Below are positions 3,001 to 54,961 of a DNA stretch of 64,000 nucleotides, one piece after another. Each line of letters starts with the position of its first letter. The stretch's first letter is position 1. The notes under the pieces were generated by a model, which was not told the origin of the DNA, made no database searches, and saw only the letters and a program-made list of their open reading frames with translations. The position numbers were made by a program, and so were the translations under genes. Origin of the DNA: a virus; UHGV virus genome UHGV-0091736. One strand, written 5' to 3'.

Positions 3001-3774
3001 AAGTATGAATCAATGACTCCTATCGAGAAAGAGATTGTTAAGGTTACTGGAGATACTGAAGGTAAACTTGATAACTTGGATGCGGATACTAGGAAGGCTA
3101 TTGAGGAGGCTCAGAAGGTTGACTCTGATATTAAGAAACTGCAAGAGGAAGAGTTGGAGATGGAGAAGGTTCGTTCTGCTCTGCCTGACGATGAAAGATC
3201 TCAAGCAAGTTCTGATATCTTGGAAAGCATTAAACAGCAGGAAGAAGCCTTTGCTGATAAAGCAGAGAAAGCGTTCTTGAATGGGAAGAGCTTGGATGAG
3301 TTAGTTAGTGTGGCTGAAGTTTTAGACAGAGTTCATGGTGCAGATAAGGCTGGTAACAACCGTCGCTTTGTACGTGCATTGCAGACTGCTGCTGAAAACA
3401 AGAAGAAGTATGGAGATAATCCGGTAGCTTGGTTTAGTGCTGATGATTATTCTGCCATTGCTAAACTTGGTGCTTCTTCCGCAGGTGGTAACAAATCCAG
3501 AGCACTGGAGAAGATCTTTGGTTCTACAGCTGAACAGGCTAAGAGTAAGTTGCTTGGTAGGGATGATGTAGCGAAGATGAGACGTGTGATTGAAGAGAAC
3601 CCTGATATTAAGATTCCTTCTTACAAGACAACGAATCGTACTGAGTACTTGCAGTTCTTGGAGAAGTTTAATGACGAAGGGAAGCCGAAGATTAAACGTG
3701 GCTCATTGTCAGAGAAGCTTGAACGCAGTAAGCGTCAATCGAGACTCCGTGTAAGAGTTCGACCTAAGGAGTGA
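1..3774 (+). CDS. Large coiled-coil-rich virion-associated protein, 5-prime partial (frame is open from window position 1); possible internal/ejection or tape-measure-like protein
   Basis: Over 1226 aa, Ala/Glu/Lys/Arg-rich with long predicted helical stretches, Gly/Ala-rich N-terminal part, basic C-terminus; same strand as the structural operon and followed by a terminator. Confidence 0.35.
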   Translation, partial: GALVGAAEAQNKHGDDTTFANVLEGAIEEGAMGAAFGGAVGGVHGLISRPDSAVFKNTPEYAKTDIAADDELIRSAKNIDELKEAYSKAETANAASALNLLDENGFRITDAVAVDSPAAQRILNTDQAHAEKAASVQKEHSNIPGLNPLASPAKVRGKAFADNEHNQKQAVAMKDAMADYTKDNTKTLTDVLDNLDRELTSLRASGDFTGSPIDIKNRTQADRDFIDAYKTFYNEANRFKSREGEDFNNFVEKATELQKMADNVSPEMKKAIGGLKKLKGMPEGFNPIQDAYTLNNTAKFMSNQDRGWTSLTDDGFREASSPSLVMNTLGAAKYALNRFSSQRARSQRVKQQESNSEAIRSLARGDLEVARAKSTADEARAKMEEEPVVDDIKFKTQNDVETEPVREPSSSTVTEENLPSSAPQETPLTARDLVAQRRAIRQAEQRRAEEEALAAQEAPVEQSPQAEPLPARNPLEERRAMEQQRAQEEAVQAPEPTVEEPTVKAEPLPARAPKAPKEAVQDVKPASGVERLAAMSSAARQATKDRAERFARSLYSKAAKAKATAENFLAYKGDPKELMRRIRQEDNAINTERHEEMARNQLASQQGIATAKNNTVRTNFAEWVKERGLPEDIATKALRAEEKGLGGNVTNLDSLKRRAERLYQKQREDEFDRLYQQALEENKAFDKKDAPKLVDQKKELQSEIDALIDSEPLRPAQKDAMRKLMNDFVDGKFKSSEKAGREEALEVGQMKDIWDGFINTYNREVNAFNKANKNSQYEAAAKHLQAREERLATLKNKAQARSDAKAAVENERKTLEAIAAQKSEIEKMMEGLPKPVREAQESRTLKQLAAHHDKNSPVPPEKFRSYIERIHNAESDYLDRQRRLTDAEEDARQAKWNKMYEQAEELNRKFDVDKRVKRSEELKAAQERENDLMAVQRQRDDIHRRLMRTMEDKGISREDAEAFAGSYMDNRYALLEKPMTPTEHQNARSRIEADVEKFAKKYESMTPIEKEIVKVTGDTEGKLDNLDADTRKAIEEAQKVDSDIKKLQEEELEMEKVRSALPDDERSQASSDILESIKQQEEAFADKAEKAFLNGKSLDELVSVAEVLDRVHGADKAGNNRRFVRALQTAAENKKKYGDNPVAWFSADDYSAIAKLGASSAGGNKSRALEKIFGSTAEQAKSKLLGRDDVAKMRRVIEENPDIKIPSYKTTNRTEYLQFLEKFNDEGKPKIKRGSLSEKLERSKRQSRLRVRVRPKE

Positions 3775-48617: not shown

Positions 48618-48881
48618 TCATTCTTCATCATTGCCTTTACCTTCAAAGAGTGATACTCTAAGCAATTTAATTTCTTCCAGTGACAGAAGAATCCCACGTT
48701 GCGCCAGATAATGACCAGCTTTAACATCATCCATAATTAGAGCGACGGCAGGAAATTCTACCGCATTAATATTATCGCCACCAACAAACAAGATCAGACA
48801 CTTGTCAGAATTGTCAGTATATGAGAAATCAATATCCCCATAGTTATGAGTAGGGATAGTGTAACTATGTTCTTTAGCCAT
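48618..48881 (-). CDS. Hypothetical protein
   Basis: ORF only. Confidence 0.35.
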   Translation of the reverse strand: MAKEHSYTIPTHNYGDIDFSYTDNSDKCLILFVGGDNINAVEFPAVALIMDDVKAGHYLAQRGILLSLEEIKLLRVSLFEGKGNDEE

Positions 48882-48891
48882 GTATTAATCC

Positions 48892-49764
48892 TTACTTATT
48901 AGCCTTAATGCAGTTGGCTAGATTAACGTGAACAGTATAAACAGCATTATCAGCGTTATTATAAACGGTAGTGGCGATCATCGACTCCTTAACCGGACCA
49001 TAACTCACTAGATTGGTTACAGCTTTAACGTCTTCATAACGTTGTACAGTACCAAATGTCACCATATCCGCATCATTATCAGTGCGCTTAAGCACCAAAT
49101 CATTGTTAGGCTGATTATCTAGTGTTTTAGACTGAAAGAGAACGCCTTCATTTGTTACGTTGCTAAACTTCATTTTTAAGACAATAGTATTGCCGTCACT
49201 ATCCGCACCGTTGCAAATCATCCAACCTTTATTGATGGAACTAGAGAAGACACTAGCCGCATCAGTTGCAGGAGCAGGACTAGCAACAGCCTTATCAGAA
49301 AGAGATGTGACCAGTGCACTAACACCGATCGCTGCAACCAGTGCATAACTTGCCAGATTAACAGACTTCATAATCTTACTTGCAACAGTAGGCTTGATTG
49401 GCTGTTTCTTGTTTTTCTTGTTCCATGCTTCAACCATGACAGACAAGCGGGATAATTCAGCTTTCACATCACGGCATGACTCAGGCCAATCTTTCTGATT
49501 CCAGCTATCTAAATTTGCTTGAATGTAGCAATTAATAGCGTCCTGCATATCGGTAAAACCGTTCTCTTTGAACGTGCTTTCATCTTCACACTGTAAAGCG
49601 TTCGCAGTAGAGTTAATGATCAAGCAAGCCAGCATTACAGAGTTTTTGAATCCTTTACGTGCACTTTCGTTTTCCATCCACGCATCAGGACTACCAACGG
49701 TTAAGCCTAAAGATGAAAGGTTTTCGTTTGCTTTGTTCAAGTGGTTAATTGCTACTTTAGACAT
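48892..49764 (-). CDS. Bitopic membrane protein (cytoplasmic domain, one TM, periplasmic domain)
   Basis: Central hydrophobic helix LASYALVAAIGVSALVTSL. Confidence 0.4.
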   Translation of the reverse strand: MSKVAINHLNKANENLSSLGLTVGSPDAWMENESARKGFKNSVMLACLIINSTANALQCEDESTFKENGFTDMQDAINCYIQANLDSWNQKDWPESCRDVKAELSRLSVMVEAWNKKNKKQPIKPTVASKIMKSVNLASYALVAAIGVSALVTSLSDKAVASPAPATDAASVFSSSINKGWMICNGADSDGNTIVLKMKFSNVTNEGVLFQSKTLDNQPNNDLVLKRTDNDADMVTFGTVQRYEDVKAVTNLVSYGPVKESMIATTVYNNADNAVYTVHVNLANCIKANK

Positions 49765-49979
49765 TTGATATTCCTTATGGTTGATGAAAACTACAAACTA
49801 CAATCGCAACTATATAATAAAGGAAAAGGCTGTCAACCATTTATTTTCTAACTTTCCTATAACTTACTGAAAACTAAAGGAATTTAATTTACTAAACTTT
49901 CCATACTCAGAGAATCAGCTTACTGGATATTGTTACTTTATAACACTAATCCTACGGGTAACAGACCAACAGACCAGGG

Positions 49980-50410
49980 CAAACGGGGAACACACAACCG
50001 CAGGATAGACCACGGGGAAACATAGCCAGATAGTGCGGTAGTAATATACCACTTAAATAATTAGTTAACTATTAATAGCATTACTCAAACATCAAAGACC
50101 ATTCGCTACGCTCATGCACGCTGAAAAAGAAAAGAATAAAAAGAATATAATAACCATCAAACATAATCTTTCCACTTAATTAATACATATATCATTATTG
50201 CACTCATAATAACAACTATTGAAACTATTTACACTCAAACTATGGGGGATGGGATGGTTACTATACGGTATTATTAGACCTGTTATTATCACGCCTTAAC
50301 AGAGTCTAGCCTTTCATCCACTCAGTAAAGGGGAACTAAATAAACGGGTAGGTAATGTAATAGATGACATATACGGGGAAAGAATAACGGGGAGTAGGCA
50401 CGGGGAAGGT
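49980..50410 (+). repeat. Noncoding region with five ACGGGGA repeats around an AT-rich core
   Basis: ACGGGGA at about 49983, 50013, 50373, 50388, 50400. Confidence 0.45.
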
Positions 50411-50719
50411 TAGAACGTGGGAGGAGGTGTAAAGGCATTGCCAATAACCCTTTTTTAAATGAGGACTCCCCCTTTTTAGGAATTCGTCGCAGAGCGCCTA
50501 GCCCCACTCGGTCAAATCAGAATTTTAAACTCTTATATATAAGGTTGAAAGAGAACTTATGTGGAAAATTAAGTTAATCATTAAGCAATTCAAATGTGAT
50601 CATGAGTACTATCGGATACGCAAAGCTTACGGGGATGAAAGAGTTCACTCCCTTTATAAGTCCACTTGGAGATGTAGTGAATGTGGTAAGCTTAAGCACA
50701 GCACATGGATGGATAGGCC

Positions 50720-50891
50720 TTAACGTGACATGGCCTTTATGGGGGTGCCTTAATGTGAAGTCCCTTTTATGTTTTAACTTTTATCAGAGGGATGTATGAC
50801 TGAAGATGAATATGGTAGCTTCTCTGAAGAAGACTACGAAAATGAATACAGGTATACTCACGGGTGTTAATGTGAGGTGGCCTTTACGGGT
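50720..50891 (+). repeat. Three copies of a roughly 24-nt element TTAA(C/T)GTGA ... GGCCTTTA(T/C)GGG
   Basis: Copies at about 50720, 50750, 50868. Confidence 0.4.
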
Positions 50892-50952
50892 TAGATAGCC
50901 ATCAAAGATGACGATATGACTAGCCCTTTATACTTTACTCAGAGGACAAAAG

Positions 50953-51060
50953 TATGGGATGGTTCCTGTTGGTTTTAATTCTTTTTACCACTGTTCCTAT
51001 TGTTGCTGTGTTTGGTTGCATAGCCGCTGACTTATTAGGAATAAAGAAAGGAGATGATTT
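50953..51060 (+). CDS. Small hydrophobic peptide (35 aa), not in the ORF track
   Basis: Single TM-like segment; stop overlaps the next ATG. Confidence 0.3.
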
Positions 51061-51417
51061 ATGAGGTTGGATTTAAGAGGTTGTACTAGGTCAGTTATAT
51101 TGTTCAGAGGTTATGCTATCAAGATTCCTACTTTTAAATCTTGGAAGCTTTTCTTAAAAGGGATTCTTGCTAATCTACAAGAGAGACATTTCTCTGAGAT
51201 GAAAGACCCCAACCTTTGTCCTGTAGTCTTCTCTGATAAGTTAGGTTTCTTAGTAATAATGAAGAGGTGTAAAGAGGTTGAGCACATAGGATTGTGGATG
51301 GCAGAGATTCACACCTTGAAAGGTTCCCTTCCTAAAGAATTTTACCTGTCAGATCTTAAGCCAGAAAATTATGGATACCTAGGCGGGCGGTTGGTTAAAT
51401 TAGATTATGGAGATTGA
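51061..51417 (+). CDS. Small protein with protein-kinase-like catalytic-loop motifs
   Basis: DLKPENYGYLGGRLVKLDYGD resembles the kinase catalytic loop and DFG region. Confidence 0.3.
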   Translation: MRLDLRGCTRSVILFRGYAIKIPTFKSWKLFLKGILANLQERHFSEMKDPNLCPVVFSDKLGFLVIMKRCKEVEHIGLWMAEIHTLKGSLPKEFYLSDLKPENYGYLGGRLVKLDYGD

Positions 51418-51644: not shown

Positions 51645-52046
51645 ATGTTAGACTTAATCCACACTACTCGCCCTAATTCTAAAACTAAAACACAACCATC
51701 TACTCTGGAAGTAGTTGAATATGAATCTACTAAACATGACCACCTCCCTGACTATGCTCGTGCAATGATTGAGATGATTGAAGAAGCTGAATATGAAATG
51801 CTCCATGATTACATTACCTCCAAAGATGAATGGCATCGTGATGTTCGAATAGAAGAGGATGGTACAGAAACAATTACGTGGATTCACAAGAGTGAGCTAG
51901 TAGACGACGCACTGCGAGACTACGAAAAATTTTTGGTCGACGGCTCTATTCTTTTAGAGGAAGGGAAGGGTGCAGAACTTCCGTGGGAAGGCGAGACGAT
52001 TGCTCTTGGTAAGATGTTTAACCTGTCCGTTGGTGATTGTAAGTAA
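51645..52046 (+). CDS. Hypothetical acidic protein
   Basis: ORF followed by a terminator. Confidence 0.35.
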   Translation: MLDLIHTTRPNSKTKTQPSTLEVVEYESTKHDHLPDYARAMIEMIEEAEYEMLHDYITSKDEWHRDVRIEEDGTETITWIHKSELVDDALRDYEKFLVDGSILLEEGKGAELPWEGETIALGKMFNLSVGDCK

Positions 52047-52051
52047 TATTT

Positions 52052-52076
52052 GCCTCCGTTGGGAGGCTTTTTGTGT
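52052..52076 (+). terminator. Rho-independent terminator
   Basis: Stem GCCTCC/GGAGGC, loop GTTG, TTTTT. Confidence 0.6.
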
Positions 52077-52102
52077 TGTTGATAATGTAGAAGGAGTATA
52101 AA

Positions 52103-52576
52103 ATGTTTGGAGAAAACGGAGAACTCACGCCTGCACAGGTAGCTGAGATTACAGGAAGATTACCCGGAGTAACGGAAGAACTTGAAGGCCGTGGTATGAA
52201 CCCAAGCAATGGGAAGTTTCAAAAGGGGAATAAATTCGGACGACCCAAAGGTAGTAGAGGTAAACTGACACAATTAATGTTGGACCGTGTTGCTGCAAGT
52301 CATTTGTCTCCTGATGAAGTGTTAATTCAAATTTACGAAGATCCTAATATTCCACCTGATCTTAGATTCAAGGCTGCATCAAAAGTTGCAGATCTGGTAT
52401 ATCCTAAGGCGGCCTCCGTTGAAGTTAAGATTGAGGAAGAGAATGTAATCAACGAAGAATCATTGAATGCACAAATCAAGGACTTCTTGACTGGAGCACT
52501 TGGTATCGACGTTATGCCTCCAGAAGAAGACAACTCTGAGGACGCTGAAAAGGGGGAGGAAGCGGACGAGAGTTAA
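52103..52576 (+). CDS. Putative terminase small subunit
   Basis: Immediately upstream of the large terminase; basic HTH-like N-terminal region, acidic C-terminus. Confidence 0.45.
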   Translation: MFGENGELTPAQVAEITGRLPGVTEELEGRGMNPSNGKFQKGNKFGRPKGSRGKLTQLMLDRVAASHLSPDEVLIQIYEDPNIPPDLRFKAASKVADLVYPKAASVEVKIEEENVINEESLNAQIKDFLTGALGIDVMPPEEDNSEDAEKGEEADES

Positions 52577-52645: not shown

Positions 52646-53251
52646 ATGTCACTAGATAAACAAATTTATGAAGCTCTAACTGGTAACAATCTTAGTGTAG
52701 ATGAAAAGAAAGCACTATTGAATATGTTGAAAGAGCGTGACCAATGGAGGAAGTATAATAGGATTTTGTCTTTCAAGGCGTATGACTTCCAAAAGAAATT
52801 TTATGCAGCAGGATTGAAGCATAGGTTCAGGTTTCTCTGTGCGGCTAACCGAGTTGGGAAAAGTTACAGTGAAGCGTACGAATTCGCATGCCACGTTACC
52901 GGAAGATATCCAACATGGTGGACCGGTCATAAGTTTAAGAGGCCAATACTTGCGTGGGCTGTAGGGATTACAGGGGACTCAACAAGGAAAGTATTGCAAA
53001 AAGAATTATTTGGTACACCAATTGGAAAGGACACTAATCTGCTAGGTACTGGAGTTATTCCACGAGATGCAATAGTAATAGATACTATAGAAAGGGATGG
53101 TAATAAGCTACAGATAGTACAGATTAAGCACCAGAATGAAAGGGGTGAGTTTGATGGATTAAGTACGTTAGAATTTCGATCAACACAACAGGGTGAACAT
53201 ACACTGATGGGTGCTACTGTTGATTATATATGGCTGGATGAAGAGGATTGT
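52646..53251 (+). CDS. Terminase large subunit, exon 1 (ATPase N-terminal part through Walker B)
   Basis: Walker A AANRVGKS and Walker B YIWLDE; track ORF stops two codons after the proposed splice point. Confidence 0.7.
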
Positions 53252-54037
53252 ATATAACATAGCTAGAAGTGTTGGTCCTCTATAAACTCGGTGAATTGCT
53301 GGAACCTCTGACCCTTAAGTGGAAGACAATCAGCAGCGAAGATAATGTATAACTTACTCATGATACATTATAACGTTCAACGACTATCGAAAGCATAGCC
53401 CGTATGGGTGAAGAAGCAAGTAGAGTAGATACCAAGTGGTATCGAAGTGCCGAGCAAAACTAAGGAGTGATACATTGGGTAGACCTAACAAATCATTAGA
53501 TTCAACCAAAACATGTTCAGTGTGCTCTGTAACAAAAGACATAGAATCTTTTGCAATAAGAACAAGAGCAATATCCACTGGAGAGGTTAGAATCTACCGT
53601 AAGTCTCAATGCAAAGAGTGCATGGCTGAGATGAGAAGGGATTGGGGTAAGAATAATCCAGATAAGATTCGTGAGAATAATAATTCTCCAAATAAGAGAG
53701 CTTGCGATAATGCAAGACGGGCTGGATTAGAAACTGCTTCTATTATCAGAGATGATGAGTATAATAAATTTGTTATGGAAGAAATGTATGAACTTCGAAA
53801 TCTTAGAACAAAGGAAACTGGATTTCAATGGCATGTAGATCACATAATCCCTTTAAAAGGTAATAACGTATGTGGTTTTCATGTCTGGTATAACTTGCAG
53901 GTAGTTCCTGCTGTTTTCAACCTATCTAAGAGTAATAGTTTTGATGATATAGTCTGCTCTGCATGGAAACATGCAGCTGGAGAAATCCGGGATGAGATTA
54001 ACGATCTTGTCTGAACAACACGCCATATGAGTCTATG
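53252..54037 (+). mobile_element. Self-splicing intron (probably group I) in the terminase large subunit gene, carrying an HNH ORF
   Basis: Exon 1 ends in T (TGT), intron ends in G (ATG); splicing joins Walker B to the ITATP motif in frame; shares AACTCGGTGAA block with the polymerase intron. Confidence 0.55.
53436..54014 (+). CDS. Intron-encoded HNH endonuclease (probable TTG start at 53475)
   Basis: [24 protein letters not shown] motif; AAGGAG then TTG; TAATGTATA at 53343-53351 upstream. Confidence 0.65.
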
Positions 54038-54961
54038 GCTATATTCGCACAGTGCGTCACACGTACACTCACAACTAAAGGTCTAGTTACAATTACAGCT
54101 ACACCAGAGAACGGTTTAACTGAACTGGTAGATAAATTTATGAAAGGTGAAGGGGATGAGAACACAGGTTCTCTATATTTCCAGAATGCTTCTTGGTGGG
54201 ATGCTCATGCAGACCTAGGTGGACATATCACTGACCAAGATATAAAAGATATGACTGAAGGTATTCCAGCGTGGCAGTTAGAGATGCGTTCGAAAGGTAT
54301 GCCATTGTTAGGAAGTGGTTTGATATATGATGTATCGGATGACACAATTAAATGTGAACCATTCGAAATTCCTGATACGTGGAAACGTGTCTGTGCAATT
54401 GATATTGGTATTGATCACCCAACTGCTGCTGTTTGGACAGCTTACGATGCAAACACGGATACTGTCTATGTTTACGACTCATATAAAGAAGGTGGCTTTA
54501 CTCCAGTGTATCATGCTCCAGCTATTAATGGTCGTGGTCAGTGGATTCCTGTCATCCTACCGCATGATGCGGACAATATTGAGAAAGGTAGTGGATCATC
54601 TGTTGCTCAATTCTATAAGAATGCAGGAGTTAATGTACAGAGTGAGACCTTCTACAACAAAATTGGAATGGATGGTAAAAAGAACTTCTTTGTAGAACCC
54701 GGAATCACAGATATCCGAGAAAGAATGATGAGTGGACGCTTTAAAATCTTTAACACAGCTGCTAACGCTAAGCTATTCGAAGAGAAAGCTAGATATCACC
54801 GCAAGGTTGGTAAGATTATTAAAGAACATGATGACTTAATGGATGCAATGCGCTATTCAGCGTGCTCTGTTACACATCGTGGTCGCTCTAAGCATGACGT
54901 TAGCTACGGAAGTGCTTCTCTGTATGAGGCAAACGTAAGCAGATGGAATCAGAGTTACTAA
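54038..54961 (+). CDS. Terminase large subunit, exon 2 (coupling motif and nuclease domain)
   Basis: LVTITATPENG motif then Asp-rich nuclease-like region. Confidence 0.7.
   Translation, partial: AIFAQCVTRTLTTKGLVTITATPENGLTELVDKFMKGEGDENTGSLYFQNASWWDAHADLGGHITDQDIKDMTEGIPAWQLEMRSKGMPLLGSGLIYDVSDDTIKCEPFEIPDTWKRVCAIDIGIDHPTAAVWTAYDANTDTVYVYDSYKEGGFTPVYHAPAINGRGQWIPVILPHDADNIEKGSGSSVAQFYKNAGVNVQSETFYNKIGMDGKKNFFVEPGITDIRERMMSGRFKIFNTAANAKLFEEKARYHRKVGKIIKEHDDLMDAMRYSACSVTHRGRSKHDVSYGSASLYEANVSRWNQSY

What the first reader, a model, noticed from the sequence alone, without database searches (positions are those of the whole stretch)
49765..50891. ACGGGGA iterons and a triplicated 24-nt element at the start of the rightward late operon
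Five ACGGGGA copies flank an AT-rich core at 49980-50410. Further on, three copies of TTAA(C/T)GTGA ... GGCCTTTA(T/C)GGG overlap a doubtful 67-aa ORF (50596-50799). Together with the previous region this makes a 4-kb divergent control region holding only three membrane-protein genes.
Basis: seen in the sequence. Interest (0 to 1): 0.5.

Follow-up and report, generated by a model that had tools for sequence, protein, structure and literature searches.

The report
Kuravirus genome-end junction with heptamer arrays
The flagged stretch is where the two physical ends of a phiEco32-like coliphage genome meet (its 192-bp terminal repeat), and the short one-strand repeats around it most likely guide the DNA-packaging enzyme, much like the still unexplained heptamer arrays at the ends of phage T7.

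Summary
Both repeat sets are real and non-random, but the region is not the start of the late operon. The window is a circularly permuted Kuravirus (phiEco32-like) genome. Positions 50308-50499 are the single collapsed copy of the 192/193-bp direct terminal repeat (DTR), whose ends were mapped experimentally in phiEco32, SU10, YF01 and Paul.

Three ACGGGGA copies lie inside the DTR and two lie about 300 bp to its left. They belong to a wider AYGGGK family: 12 copies on the + strand, none on the - strand, 0.5 expected. The family is conserved in position across at least 21 related genomes on a roughly 14/29-bp lattice. T7, checked here, has the same layout with CCTAAAG.

The majority motif variant tracks two residues (33 and 36) of the putative small terminase gp6. 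My best reading is therefore a terminase recognition array flanking cut sites CT|AGSC; this step is inferred.

The "24-nt element" is part of a second + strand array (SCCYTTTAY). It marks the boundaries of swapped small-gene cassettes and is not a gp36 promoter. The 67-aa ORF is spurious; the real gene is 50559-50723. An origin of replication remains a live rival. The DTR is known, but I found no description of the arrays in the papers I could search.

The parts
49809..49836 (-). Sigma-70 early promoter for the leftward early genes (P128 type): TTGACA-16-TATAGT
   Evidence: scores it 11 of 12. The same sequence is listed as the early promoter upstream of CDS125 in SU10 Table S2.
49954..50018 (+). 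Cluster A of AYGGGK sites: ACGGGT at 49954, ACGGGGA at 49983 and 50012, spaced 29 and 29 bp. It lies 290-354 bp left of the left cut site.
   Evidence: conserved in 15 genomes. Its motif variant changes together with that of cluster B.
50030..50300 (.). AT-rich core (GC 27-29%) with near-invariant blocks, including two co-varying boxes CCACTTAAWTAAT (50049-50061 and 50172-50184) and the invariant AACTATGGGG (ATGGGG at 50242-50247)
   Evidence: repeat D12; 20-nt conservation up to 0.93-0.94.
50304..50311 (+). Left terminal cut site GTCT|AGCC, cut between 50307 and 50308
   Evidence: By homology to the mapped ends of phiEco32, YF01 and Paul. The records of IMEP8, Paul, phiEco32 and CHD5UKE1 start exactly at this position. 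The bases AG[CG]C after the cut are kept in all 15 aligned genomes (12 have CT|AGCC, 3 CT|GGCC).
50308..50499 (+). Direct terminal repeat (192 bp), present once in this circularly permuted window
   Evidence: DTR literature: PMC4281155 and PMC9965538.
50344..50406 (+). Cluster B of AYGGGK sites inside the DTR: ACGGGT at 50344, ACGGGGA at 50373, 50387 and 50400, spaced 29, 14 and 13 bp
50353..50361 (+). gp36-promoter-like 9-mer TAATGTAAT inside the DTR, with G at -37 (50331) and A at -34 (50334). Candidate only.
   Evidence: The contacts of gp36 with its promoter are taken from PMC12276001. phiEco32 itself has TAATGAATA at this place.
50448..50480 (+). Most conserved DTR block, CCCTTTTTTAAATGAGGACTCCCCCTTTTTAGG, 20-52 bp before the right cut
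   Evidence: conservation 0.97. GAGGACTCCCC is kept in contigs whose gp6 is only 61-87% identical. It was noted as the conserved positions 130-170 in PMC9965538 and as an internal repeat in SU10.
50496..50503 (+). Right terminal cut site GCCT|AGCC, cut between 50499 and 50500
50559..50723 (+). Real first left-end gene: a 54-aa zinc-ribbon-like protein. The ACGGGGA at 50629 lies in its KAYGDE codons.
50720..50931 (+). E array of SCCYTTTAY-type elements: E1 50720-50743, E2 50750-50773, E3 50867-50890, E4 50917-50931. The elements overlap the stop codons of the upstream small ORFs and precede the SD and ATG of the next ones.
50796..50870 (+). 24-aa acidic peptide ORF (MTEDEYGSFSEEDYENEYRYTHGC) lying between E2 and E3. 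It recurs in several relatives.
50954..51417 (+). Cassette absent from phiEco32: a 36-aa membrane peptide (50954-51064) and a 118-aa ORF (51061-51417, phrog_4301), inserted after E3 and carrying its own E4 leader
52083..52091 (+). P6, the first gp36-dependent late promoter (TAATGTAGA) and the true start of the late operon
   Evidence: Published promoter lists.
52103..52576 (+). gp6, the putative small terminase subunit and the candidate reader of the arrays
   Evidence: A profile of its homologues hits the PDB small terminases 7JOQ (E=0.0022) and 6W7T (E=0.047). An HHpred assignment is reported in PMC9965538. Residues 33 and 36 track the motif variant.

Best explanation
Shown. The region is the concatemer junction of a Kuravirus (phiEco32-like) phage. 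The right-end non-coding leader runs from 49837 to 50307. One collapsed copy of the 192-bp direct terminal repeat occupies 50308-50499. The left-end accessory region starts at 50500.

Inferred. The + strand AYGGGK heptamers (cluster A, cluster B inside the repeat, and scattered copies), and probably the SCCYTTTAY array to the right, form a lattice of about 14 bp of recognition sites for the packaging machinery. The most likely reader is the ring-shaped small terminase gp6. Its binding would mark this junction among the other CTAGSC sites in the genome. It would then position the large terminase to cut at the two CT|AGSC sites 192 bp apart, so that each packaged genome carries the repeat at both ends, as in T7.
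For: Identity of the region (shown).
- The window matches the phiEco32 right end joined to its left end with the DTR collapsed.
- The DTR homologue starts exactly where several independently determined genomes start.
- DTR mapping is published for phiEco32, SU10, YF01 and Paul.

Arrays as functional sites.
- There are 12 + strand and 0 - strand copies against 0.5 expected.
- Motif columns are more conserved than spacer columns, 0.90 against 0.77, P=6e-6.
- Positions are kept in 15 genomes down to about 70% DNA identity, and in 7 contigs whose gp6 is 61-87% identical.
- Clusters A and B change motif variant together: ACGGGG becomes ATGGGT in Bas86 and Bas87, where both clusters were examined; SU7, ECBP2 and NC-B show the same ATGGGT change in cluster B.

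Link to termini.
- T7, examined here, has 13 CCTAAAG copies, all on the + strand, left of, inside and right of its 160-bp repeat, with 13-bp spacing.
- In Kuravirus, spacings between adjacent sites cluster at 13-16 and 24-31 bp.
- Both DTR boundaries carry AG[CG]C after the cut in all 15 aligned genomes (CT before it in 14), and in four phages with mapped ends both read CT|AG[CG]C (one left boundary AT|AGCC).

Link to the small terminase.
- gp6 lies immediately upstream of the large terminase, and its profile hits PDB small terminases (PMC9965538).
- Its residues 33 and 36 track the majority motif. NPSN goes with ACGGGG, N/DPNT with ACGGGT, and EPST or SPTT with ATGGGT.
- PaP3 small terminase is a nonamer 105 Angstrom across. 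By my own arithmetic, a wrap-around DNA path on such a ring would give about 13-14 bp per subunit.
Against: - No binding or cleavage data exist, and the function of the analogous T7 arrays is itself unknown (my own knowledge).
- The co-variation between gp6 and the motif rests on few independent evolutionary events and could be shared ancestry.
- The structure model of gp6 is of low confidence (pLDDT 70, pTM 0.36), and the fold search was uninformative.
- Cluster A lies about 300 bp from the nearest cut, with a strongly conserved AT-rich core in between that the packaging model does not need.
- The E array is also tied to gene starts and to cassette boundaries.
- The short cut motif is not unique in the window.
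Confidence: 0.5

Rival explanations
1. Origin of replication. The AYGGGK clusters would be iterons for a phage initiator, bracketing an AT-rich unwinding element at 50030-50300. In some lineages a phage-sigma promoter would prime the origin, as at the T7 origins.
For: - Two same-orientation repeat clusters flank a core of 27-29% GC.
- The core holds near-invariant blocks and two co-varying boxes that the packaging model does not explain.
- In EP335, Bas86, Bas87, Bas89 and the distant contigs L168, L170 and L171, a near-consensus gp36 promoter (TATAATGTATG/C) sits directly after cluster A and faces the AT-rich core. This recalls T7 promoter-plus-AT-rich origins, including the secondary ones near phiOL and phiOR (annotated; their origin role is my own knowledge).
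Against: - Half of the sites lie inside the terminal repeat, and further copies extend 400 bp beyond it.
- The core motif is 6-7 bp, not the 17-22 bp typical of iterons.
- The adjacent genes encode membrane proteins, not an initiator.
- There is no DnaA box or IHF site.
- The promoter after cluster A is absent in the window and in phiEco32.
- The motif variant tracks the small terminase.
- No replication data exist for any Kuravirus in the papers I could read.
Confidence: 0.2
2. Expression and shuffling modules (for the 24-nt E elements only). Each SCCYTTTAY element plus the U-rich leader, SD and ATG would be the conserved 5' module of a small accessory gene. Its repetition would let co-infecting phages swap cassettes by homologous recombination, as promoter-early stem-loops do in T4-type phages. 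This is not exclusive of the packaging reading.
For: - The same E module precedes different genes in different phages. The window's E4 precedes a 36-aa membrane peptide, while the near-identical module in SGF2, DE5 and PE006 precedes MRFLKEL....
- A membrane-peptide cassette is inserted exactly between the two halves of E1 in SGF2, DE5, PE006 and Bas89.
- The window's 518-bp extra cassette starts right after E3.
- E elements overlap the stop codon of the upstream ORF, and an SD and ATG follow.
Against: - No sigma-70 promoter and no terminator is found in them.
- The positions critical for gp36 vary between genomes.
- In contig L171 the same DNA motif is kept in three different reading frames inside a called gene, so it is not only a leader.
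- Tandem copies at 13-15 bp are too dense to be one per gene.
Confidence: 0.25
3. Phage-sigma (gp36) promoters or operator sites. TTAATGTGA would be a weak variant of tAATGTAtA driving the left-end genes, and the AYGGGK sites would bind a transcription regulator.
For: - E2 and E3 contain AATGTG, against the consensus AATGTA.
- The left-end genes upstream of P6 have no established promoter.
- A better candidate 9-mer with -37G and -34A lies inside the DTR at 50353-50361 (and sequence reading).
Against: - E1-E3 lack -37G and -34A and carry G at -9.
- In relatives the element reads AACATG, AACGTG or AATATG, which breaks the -12T and -11G contacts shown to be essential (PMC12276001).
- Only six gp36 promoters were found experimentally in phiEco32, none of them here.
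- E1 and E2 lie downstream of the first gene.
Confidence: 0.07
4. No sequence-specific function. The repeats would be slippage or gene-conversion products, or G-tract structural DNA (G-quadruplex).
For: The units are short, G-rich, tandem-like and confined to non-coding DNA. Cluster B has four G tracts.
Against: - Positions are conserved across genera while the spacers diverge.
- Strand bias is strict, 12 to 0.
- The two clusters, 390 bp apart, change variant together.
- The loops of 9-14 nt and the GGG-only variants (ATGGGT) argue against quadruplexes.
- The T7 analogue has no G tracts.
Confidence: 0.05

Closest known systems
Direct terminal repeat of phiEco32-like phages (Kuravirus: phiEco32, SU10, YF01, Paul)
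   Same: The sequence is the same at 85-91% identity, with the same length (192-193 bp), the same boundaries, the same conserved block at positions 130-170 and the same CCCTTTTTTA internal repeat.
   Different: Nothing essential differs. The window shows one collapsed copy in a permuted assembly. The published descriptions I could read mention neither the AYGGGK arrays, nor the shared CT|AGSC boundaries, nor the link to the small terminase.
T7 terminal repetition with its flanking heptamer arrays (called SRL and SRR by Dunn and Studier 1983; the names are from my own knowledge, the layout was checked here)
   Same: - A short DTR (160 bp in T7, 192 bp here).
- One-strand heptamer copies left of, inside the left part of, and right of the repeat.
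- Spacings of 13 bp and 24-29 bp.
- The same short sequence begins both boundaries: TCTC in T7, AGSC here.
   Different: - The motifs share no sequence similarity (CCTAAAG against AYGGGK and SCCYTTTAY).
- Kuravirus uses host RNA polymerase with a phage sigma factor, not a single-subunit polymerase.
- Cluster A is separated from the repeat by a 290-bp conserved AT-rich core.
- A small gene lies between the repeat and the right-hand array.
Small-terminase recognition repeats at packaging sites (lambda cosB R sites, SPP1 pacL and pacR boxes; PaP3 small terminase binding cos)
   Same: Repeated short sites lie next to the terminase cut. gp6 is related to the nonameric PaP3 and NV1 small terminases.
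   Different: Those phages are cos or headful packagers. No binding has been shown here. The sites spread over about 950 bp on both sides of two cuts.
Iterons of lambda-type and plasmid origins
   Same: Direct repeats lie next to an AT-rich stretch.
   Different: The unit is much shorter. No initiator gene is adjacent and there are no DnaA boxes. Copies lie inside the terminal repeat and beyond it.
Promoter-early stem-loop cassettes of T4-type phages (my own knowledge)
   Same: A conserved short module flanks interchangeable small genes in a hyperplastic region.
   Different: The E elements contain no recognisable promoter or stem-loop. They also occur as dense tandem copies and inside an ORF.

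Membership tests
Kuravirus direct terminal repeat | Sequence homologous to the experimentally mapped 193-bp repeat of phiEco32 | tested here: met
   Window 50308-50499 aligns with the phiEco32 repeat at 84.9% identity over its first 175 bases, and at 90% over its full length with IMEP8.
Kuravirus direct terminal repeat | Boundaries coincide with mapped genome ends | tested here: met
   The records of phiEco32, Paul (PhageTerm), IMEP8 and CHD5UKE1 begin at the equivalent of 50308. The right boundary ...GCGSCT|AGSC is the same in phiEco32, YF01 and Paul.
Kuravirus direct terminal repeat | The repeat is physically present at both ends of this phage's virion DNA | not testable with these tools
   This needs the raw reads or virion DNA. 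Only one copy is present in the window.
T7-type heptamer arrays at a terminal repeat | Copies on one strand only, located left of, inside and right of the repeat | tested here: met
   Kuravirus. T7: 13 CCTAAAG copies at -106 to +332 relative to the repeat start, none on the - strand.
T7-type heptamer arrays at a terminal repeat | Spacing of about 13 bp between adjacent copies | tested here: met
   Of 66 spacings under 61 bp, 23 fall at 13-16 bp and 32 at 24-31 bp. T7 shows 13 bp.
T7-type heptamer arrays at a terminal repeat | Sequence homology of the motif or of the repeat to T7 | tested here: not met
   The motifs are unrelated. The resemblance is one of architecture, not of common descent.
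Small-terminase recognition site | Sequence-specific binding by the small terminase | not testable with these tools
   There is only indirect support: gp6 residues 33 and 36 track the majority motif in 21 genomes.
Small-terminase recognition site | The presumed reader really is a small terminase | tested here: inconclusive
   The profile hits 7JOQ (E=0.0022) and 6W7T (E=0.047) over the oligomerisation helices, and HHpred support is published. Against this, Pfam gives only a weak DUF5681 hit and the fold search is not significant.
Replication-origin iterons | An initiator gene adjacent to or overlapping the repeats | tested here: not met
   The flanking genes encode membrane proteins or small peptides.
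Replication-origin iterons | An AT-rich unwinding region next to the repeats | tested here: met
   GC is 27-29% at 50050-50250.
Replication-origin iterons | Host factor sites (DnaA box, IHF) | tested here: not met
   No TTWTNCACA and no WATCAANNNNTTR occurs in 49765-50560.
Replication-origin iterons | Replication starts here | not testable with these tools
   This needs marker-frequency data or 2D gels.
gp36 (phiEco32 sigma) promoter, for the 24-nt elements | tAATGTAtA with -14A, -13A, -12T and -11G | tested here: inconclusive
   E2 and E3 have AATGTG and E1 has AACGTG. In relatives -12 and -11 vary.
gp36 (phiEco32 sigma) promoter, for the 24-nt elements | G at -37 and A at -34 | tested here: not met
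   E2 has C and G; E3 has A and C (sequence reading). By contrast, five of the six window 9-mers examined carry GG(T/A/G)A(G/A) at this place (contacts).
Known RNA families (Rfam) | A match to any covariance model | tested here: not met
   There is only a chance-level snoU85 hit, E=0.51.

The most novel reading that the evidence does not exclude
The AYGGGK and SCCYTTTAY sites form a 14-bp lattice that wraps around a nonameric small terminase ring. Residues 33 and 36 of gp6 read positions 2 and 6 of the heptamer. This would be the first recognition code for the packaging site of a phage with short direct terminal repeats. By analogy, it would explain the heptamer arrays at the T7 ends, unexplained for some forty years.
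Probability: 0.25. Interest if true: 0.6.

Novelty: new member of a known kind. Interest (0 to 1): 0.4.

Why it matters
How terminases of phages with short direct terminal repeats find and duplicate their ends is poorly understood, even in T7. The repeated heptamers next to the T7 ends have never been given a function (my own knowledge).

Kuraviruses offer a second, unrelated example of the same layout. Natural motif variants in this group track two residues of the putative small terminase, which turns the question into a simple binding and swap experiment.

In practice, the result also tells annotators three things:
- where these genomes begin;
- that the "67-aa ORF" is spurious;
- that this junction should not be disrupted when these therapeutic-candidate phages are engineered.

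Tried and rejected
- IMG/VR scan for three spaced ACGGGGA copies. It returned mostly unrelated 12-nt-period coding repeats and only phiEco32 itself was useful. A scan with a conserved 20-mer added few Kuraviruses.
- The two key phiEco32 papers (Savalia 2008, Pavlova 2012) are not held. I relied on later papers that quote them.
- Sigma-70 promoter and terminator scan. Only the known leftward early promoter came up, with nothing in the E elements and no + strand terminator.
- Rfam gave nothing.
- DnaA, IHF and GATC searches gave nothing.
- The genes annotated "terminase" (48159-48611) and the first early gene (48892-49764) were considered as DNA-binding candidates. Both have transmembrane segments and were rejected.
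- E elements as RNA hairpins. The GGCC...GGCC stem of E1 is not kept in MN03 or in E3. A CCCUUU/AGAGGG pairing that would mask the SD exists in E2 but shrinks to 5 bp or changes elsewhere. I did not pursue this.
- The structure prediction of gp6 was of low confidence and Foldseek gave no significant match.
- The short cut motif alone is not specific: six GNCTAGSC matches in the window against eight expected.
- Salmonella phage 7-11 has its own short repeats upstream of gene 1 (GT(A/G)TGGATA). Its ends are not mapped, so it was not used.
- Literature searches for the motif strings found nothing relevant.
Full report
**1. What the window is.** A search with the region against annotated phage records finds about 100 E. 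coli and Shigella phages of 75-79 kb, all phiEco32-like (Gordonclarkvirinae: Kuravirus and sister genera). I joined the phiEco32 right end to its left end with the repeat collapsed. Against that junction, window 48892-50811 aligns colinearly at 91% identity. The window is therefore a circularly permuted assembly, and the finding sits on the junction of the two physical genome ends.

**2. The terminal repeat.**
- The phiEco32 record carries identical 193-bp ends, and YF01 and Paul annotate the same repeat.
- The homologue in the window is 50308-50499 (AGCCTTTC...GAGCGCCT) and is present once.
- Several records begin exactly at the equivalent of 50308.
- The repeat was mapped by restriction analysis and primer walking in phiEco32, by read drop-off in SU10, by whole-genome nanopore reads in YF01 and by PhageTerm in Paul (PMC4281155; PMC9965538).
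- In four phages with mapped ends, and in all 15 junctions I aligned, both boundaries read AG(C/G)C after the cut, preceded by CT in all but one case (YF01 left boundary AT; 172-1 right boundary CC). The left boundary is ...CAGTGCT|AGCCTTTC and the right is ...GCGSCT|AGSCCCAC.
- In many genomes the site is a palindrome (GCT|AGC, GGCT|AGCC), which fits the blunt ends reported for SU10.
- In the window the cuts fall at 50307/50308 and 50499/50500.
- The short motif is not unique in the genome, so specificity must come from its context.

**3. The ACGGGGA repeats.**
- The five copies are as described. Three lie inside the repeat (50373, 50387, 50400) and two lie 290-325 bp to its left (49983, 50012).
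- The sixth, at 50629, lies in the conserved KAYGDE codons of a small gene. It is lost where the protein differs (Bas87), so I treat it as a coding coincidence.
- The family is wider, AYGGGK: 12 + strand copies in 961 bp, none on the - strand, 0.53 expected. No other window of that size has more than 3.
- The two clusters have parallel layouts: ACTAA..ACGGGTA, then 29 bp, then ACGGGGA, and so on (repeat D10).
- In an alignment of 15 junctions at 70-90% identity, the sites keep their positions. Motif columns are more conserved than the rest (0.90 against 0.77, Mann-Whitney P=6e-6).
- In Bas86 and Bas87 both clusters switch together from ACGGGG to ATGGGT; in SU7, ECBP2 and NC-B cluster B shows the same switch (cluster A of those three was not examined).
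- Seven more distant metagenomic contigs (gp6 61-87% identical) keep the GAGGACTCCCC block; five of them have CTAGSC about 36 nt later (L172 and L173 have other sequences at that place) and six keep + strand AYGGGK arrays (L172 has a single copy).
- Adjacent sites are spaced 13-16 bp or 24-31 bp in 55 of 66 short intervals.

**4. Comparison with T7, done here rather than recalled.**
- I fetched both T7 ends and counted CCTAAAG: 13 copies, all on the + strand.
- Relative to the start of the 160-bp repeat they lie at -106 and -77; at +17, +41 and +60 inside the repeat; and at +175 to +332 to its right, with 13-bp steps. Both boundaries begin TCTC.
- The Kuravirus junction has the same architecture with unrelated motifs.
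- That the T7 arrays are called SRL and SRR, and have no established function, is my own knowledge.
- In T7, transcription pausing at the concatemer junction is coupled to packaging (PMC3276506).

**5. Who might read the sites.**
- The neighbouring genes give no candidate. The first early gene (48892-49764) and the gene mis-annotated "terminase" (48159-48611) both have transmembrane segments.
- gp6 (52103-52576) lies immediately upstream of the large terminase.
- A profile of 53 gp6 homologues hits only small terminases in the PDB with any credibility: 7JOQ at E=0.0022 and PaP3 6W7T at E=0.047. The YF01 authors reached the same assignment with HHpred.
- gp6 is 92-99% identical across these phages. 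Even so, residues 33 and 36, just before a basic GRPKGSRGK arm, vary, and the majority heptamer varies with them:
  - NPSN goes with ACGGGG (12 genomes).
  - EPST goes with ATGGGT plus ACGGGT (Bas86 and Bas87 over both clusters; SU7, ECBP2 and NC-B in cluster B; in L168 and L174 ACGGGT is the commoner variant, 2 copies against 1 ATGGGT).
  - NPNT and DPNT go with ACGGGT (L169, L170, L171).
  - SPTT goes with ATGGGT (L173).
- This is suggestive, not proof. The number of independent changes is small and shared ancestry is not controlled for.
- The structure model is weak and the fold search uninformative.
- PaP3 small terminase is a nonamer 105 Angstrom wide, and wider in solution (PMC7672466). 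By my arithmetic, DNA wrapped around such a ring would meet one subunit every 13-14 bp, which matches the lattice. This last step is inference.

**6. The AT-rich core.**
- GC is 27-29% at 50050-50250.
- It is not a relaxed spacer. Blocks such as TGCGGTAATAATATACCACTTAAATAAT, CGCTGAAAAAG, ATCCACTTAATTAATACATAYATCATTATTGCACTCATAAT and AACTATGGGG are nearly invariant.
- Two CCACTTAAWTAAT boxes, 123 bp apart, change together between lineages: CCAATC.. in EP335 and Bas89, and CCAGTC.. in Bas86 and Bas87.
- I found no sigma-70 promoter on the + strand, no DnaA or IHF site and no Rfam family.
- In several other lineages a near-consensus phage-sigma promoter sits directly after cluster A and faces the core. 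The window lacks it.
- This is the main reason I keep the origin hypothesis alive at 0.2.

**7. The triplicated 24-nt element.**
- The three copies are real and a fourth partial copy lies at 50917.
- They are part of a + strand array whose core is SCCYTTTAY, usually preceded by TGA-N3-5 and sometimes followed by the AYGGGK motif (GCCTTTACGGGT, GCCTTTATGGGG).
- The array occurs 3-6 times in every relative, between the conserved zinc-ribbon gene and the gene 4 homologue. Spacings are 13-16, 24-31, 39-45 or 53-60 bp.
- The elements are not gp36 promoters. They lack -37G and -34A and carry G at -9. In relatives the AAYRTG part varies at the two bases that gp36 must contact.
- They mark cassette boundaries:
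  - A membrane-peptide gene is inserted exactly between the two halves of E1 in SGF2, DE5, PE006 and Bas89.
  - The window's own 518-bp insertion relative to phiEco32 begins right after E3.
  - The same module precedes different genes in different phages.
- In contig L171 the DNA motif is kept in three different reading frames inside a called gene, so the signal is at the nucleic-acid level.
- E4 (ACT|AGCCCTTTAT) resembles the left cut site (TCT|AGCCTTTCAT).
- In position, strand and period the array corresponds to the T7 right-hand heptamer array. I therefore treat it as part of the same junction apparatus, with cassette exchange as a likely side effect. Confidence in this part is low.

**8. 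Genes and promoters.**
- The 67-aa ORF is not conserved. The real gene is 50559-50723 (SU10 CDS1).
- The only strong sigma-70 promoter is the leftward early one at 49836-49809.
- The first late promoter is P6 at 52083.
- The promoter of the left-end small genes is unknown.
- A candidate phage-sigma promoter lies inside the repeat at 50353-50361 with the right -37 and -34 bases. phiEco32 itself has a T-to-A change in the core there.

**9. Verdict.** The terminal repeat is already known. I found no description of the arrays, the shared cut motif or the terminase co-variation in the literature I could search. They make a modest but testable addition to an old open question.

Noticed in passing
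window 53230-53976 (ORF 53436-54014); large terminase exons 52646-53248 and 54023-54958: The large terminase gene is split at residues 201/202 by a group I intron (Rfam RF00028: full-length match, 45 bits against a gathering score of 50, E=4.9e-10). The intron carries an HNH / endonuclease VII-like ORF preceded by an exact TAATGTATA at 53343. phiEco32 has an uninterrupted gene.
   Followed up: partly
window 50353-50361 (with 50331 and 50334): A gp36-promoter-like 9-mer, TAATGTAAT, with G at -37 and A at -34 lies inside the terminal repeat and points rightward across the junction. Half of the relatives have TAATGTAT(T/A); phiEco32 has TAATGAATA. It recalls transcription across the T7 concatemer junction.
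   Followed up: partly
window 50049-50061 and 50172-50184: Two CCACTTAAWTAAT boxes, 123 bp apart in the AT-rich core, change together between lineages (CCAATC.. and CCAGTC..). This suggests a second pair of protein-binding sites.
   Followed up: partly
window 48159-48611 (-), 48618-48881 (-), 51645-52046 (+): Inherited annotations in relatives look wrong. The "terminase" (phrog_13168) is a small protein with an N-terminal transmembrane segment. The "polymerase / DNA polymerase B region" protein is 87 aa. The "ABC transporter" has no Pfam hit and in the window is a truncated 133-aa version.
   Followed up: partly
window 50891-51409: This is a 518-bp insertion relative to phiEco32. It carries a 36-aa membrane peptide (50954-51064) and a 118-aa ORF (51061-51417, phrog_4301, unknown function).
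   Followed up: no
window 52052-52105: The late promoter P6 (52083-52091) follows a terminator-like hairpin (gcctccgttgggaggc plus a T run). It ends only 11 nt before the ATG of the small terminase gene. With a start 6-8 nt downstream of the 9-mer, the transcript would be almost leaderless.
   Followed up: no
loci L132 (about 1962-1985), L133 (about 1974-1998), L168 (about 3277-3300), L170 (about 2897-2920), L171 (about 3112-3135): In other genera and in distant contigs, a near-consensus gp36 promoter (TATAATGTATG/C) sits directly after cluster A and faces the AT-rich core. It is absent in the window and in phiEco32.
   Followed up: partly
window 50772-50790: The leader of the 24-aa ORF contains TTTTAACTTTTATCAGAGGG. 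phiEco32 has TTAACTTTA at this place, identical to the T7 gene 10 epsilon translational enhancer (my own knowledge).
   Followed up: no
window 49765-50560: There is no GATC in 796 bp, where 3.5 are expected from the window's own frequency.
   Followed up: no
locus L131 (Salmonella phage 7-11) 907-990: The 1.7-kb non-coding stretch upstream of the gp6 homologue holds its own cluster of short direct repeats (GT(A/G)TGGATA, spaced 17-29 bp). This may be a functional counterpart with a different motif.
   Followed up: no
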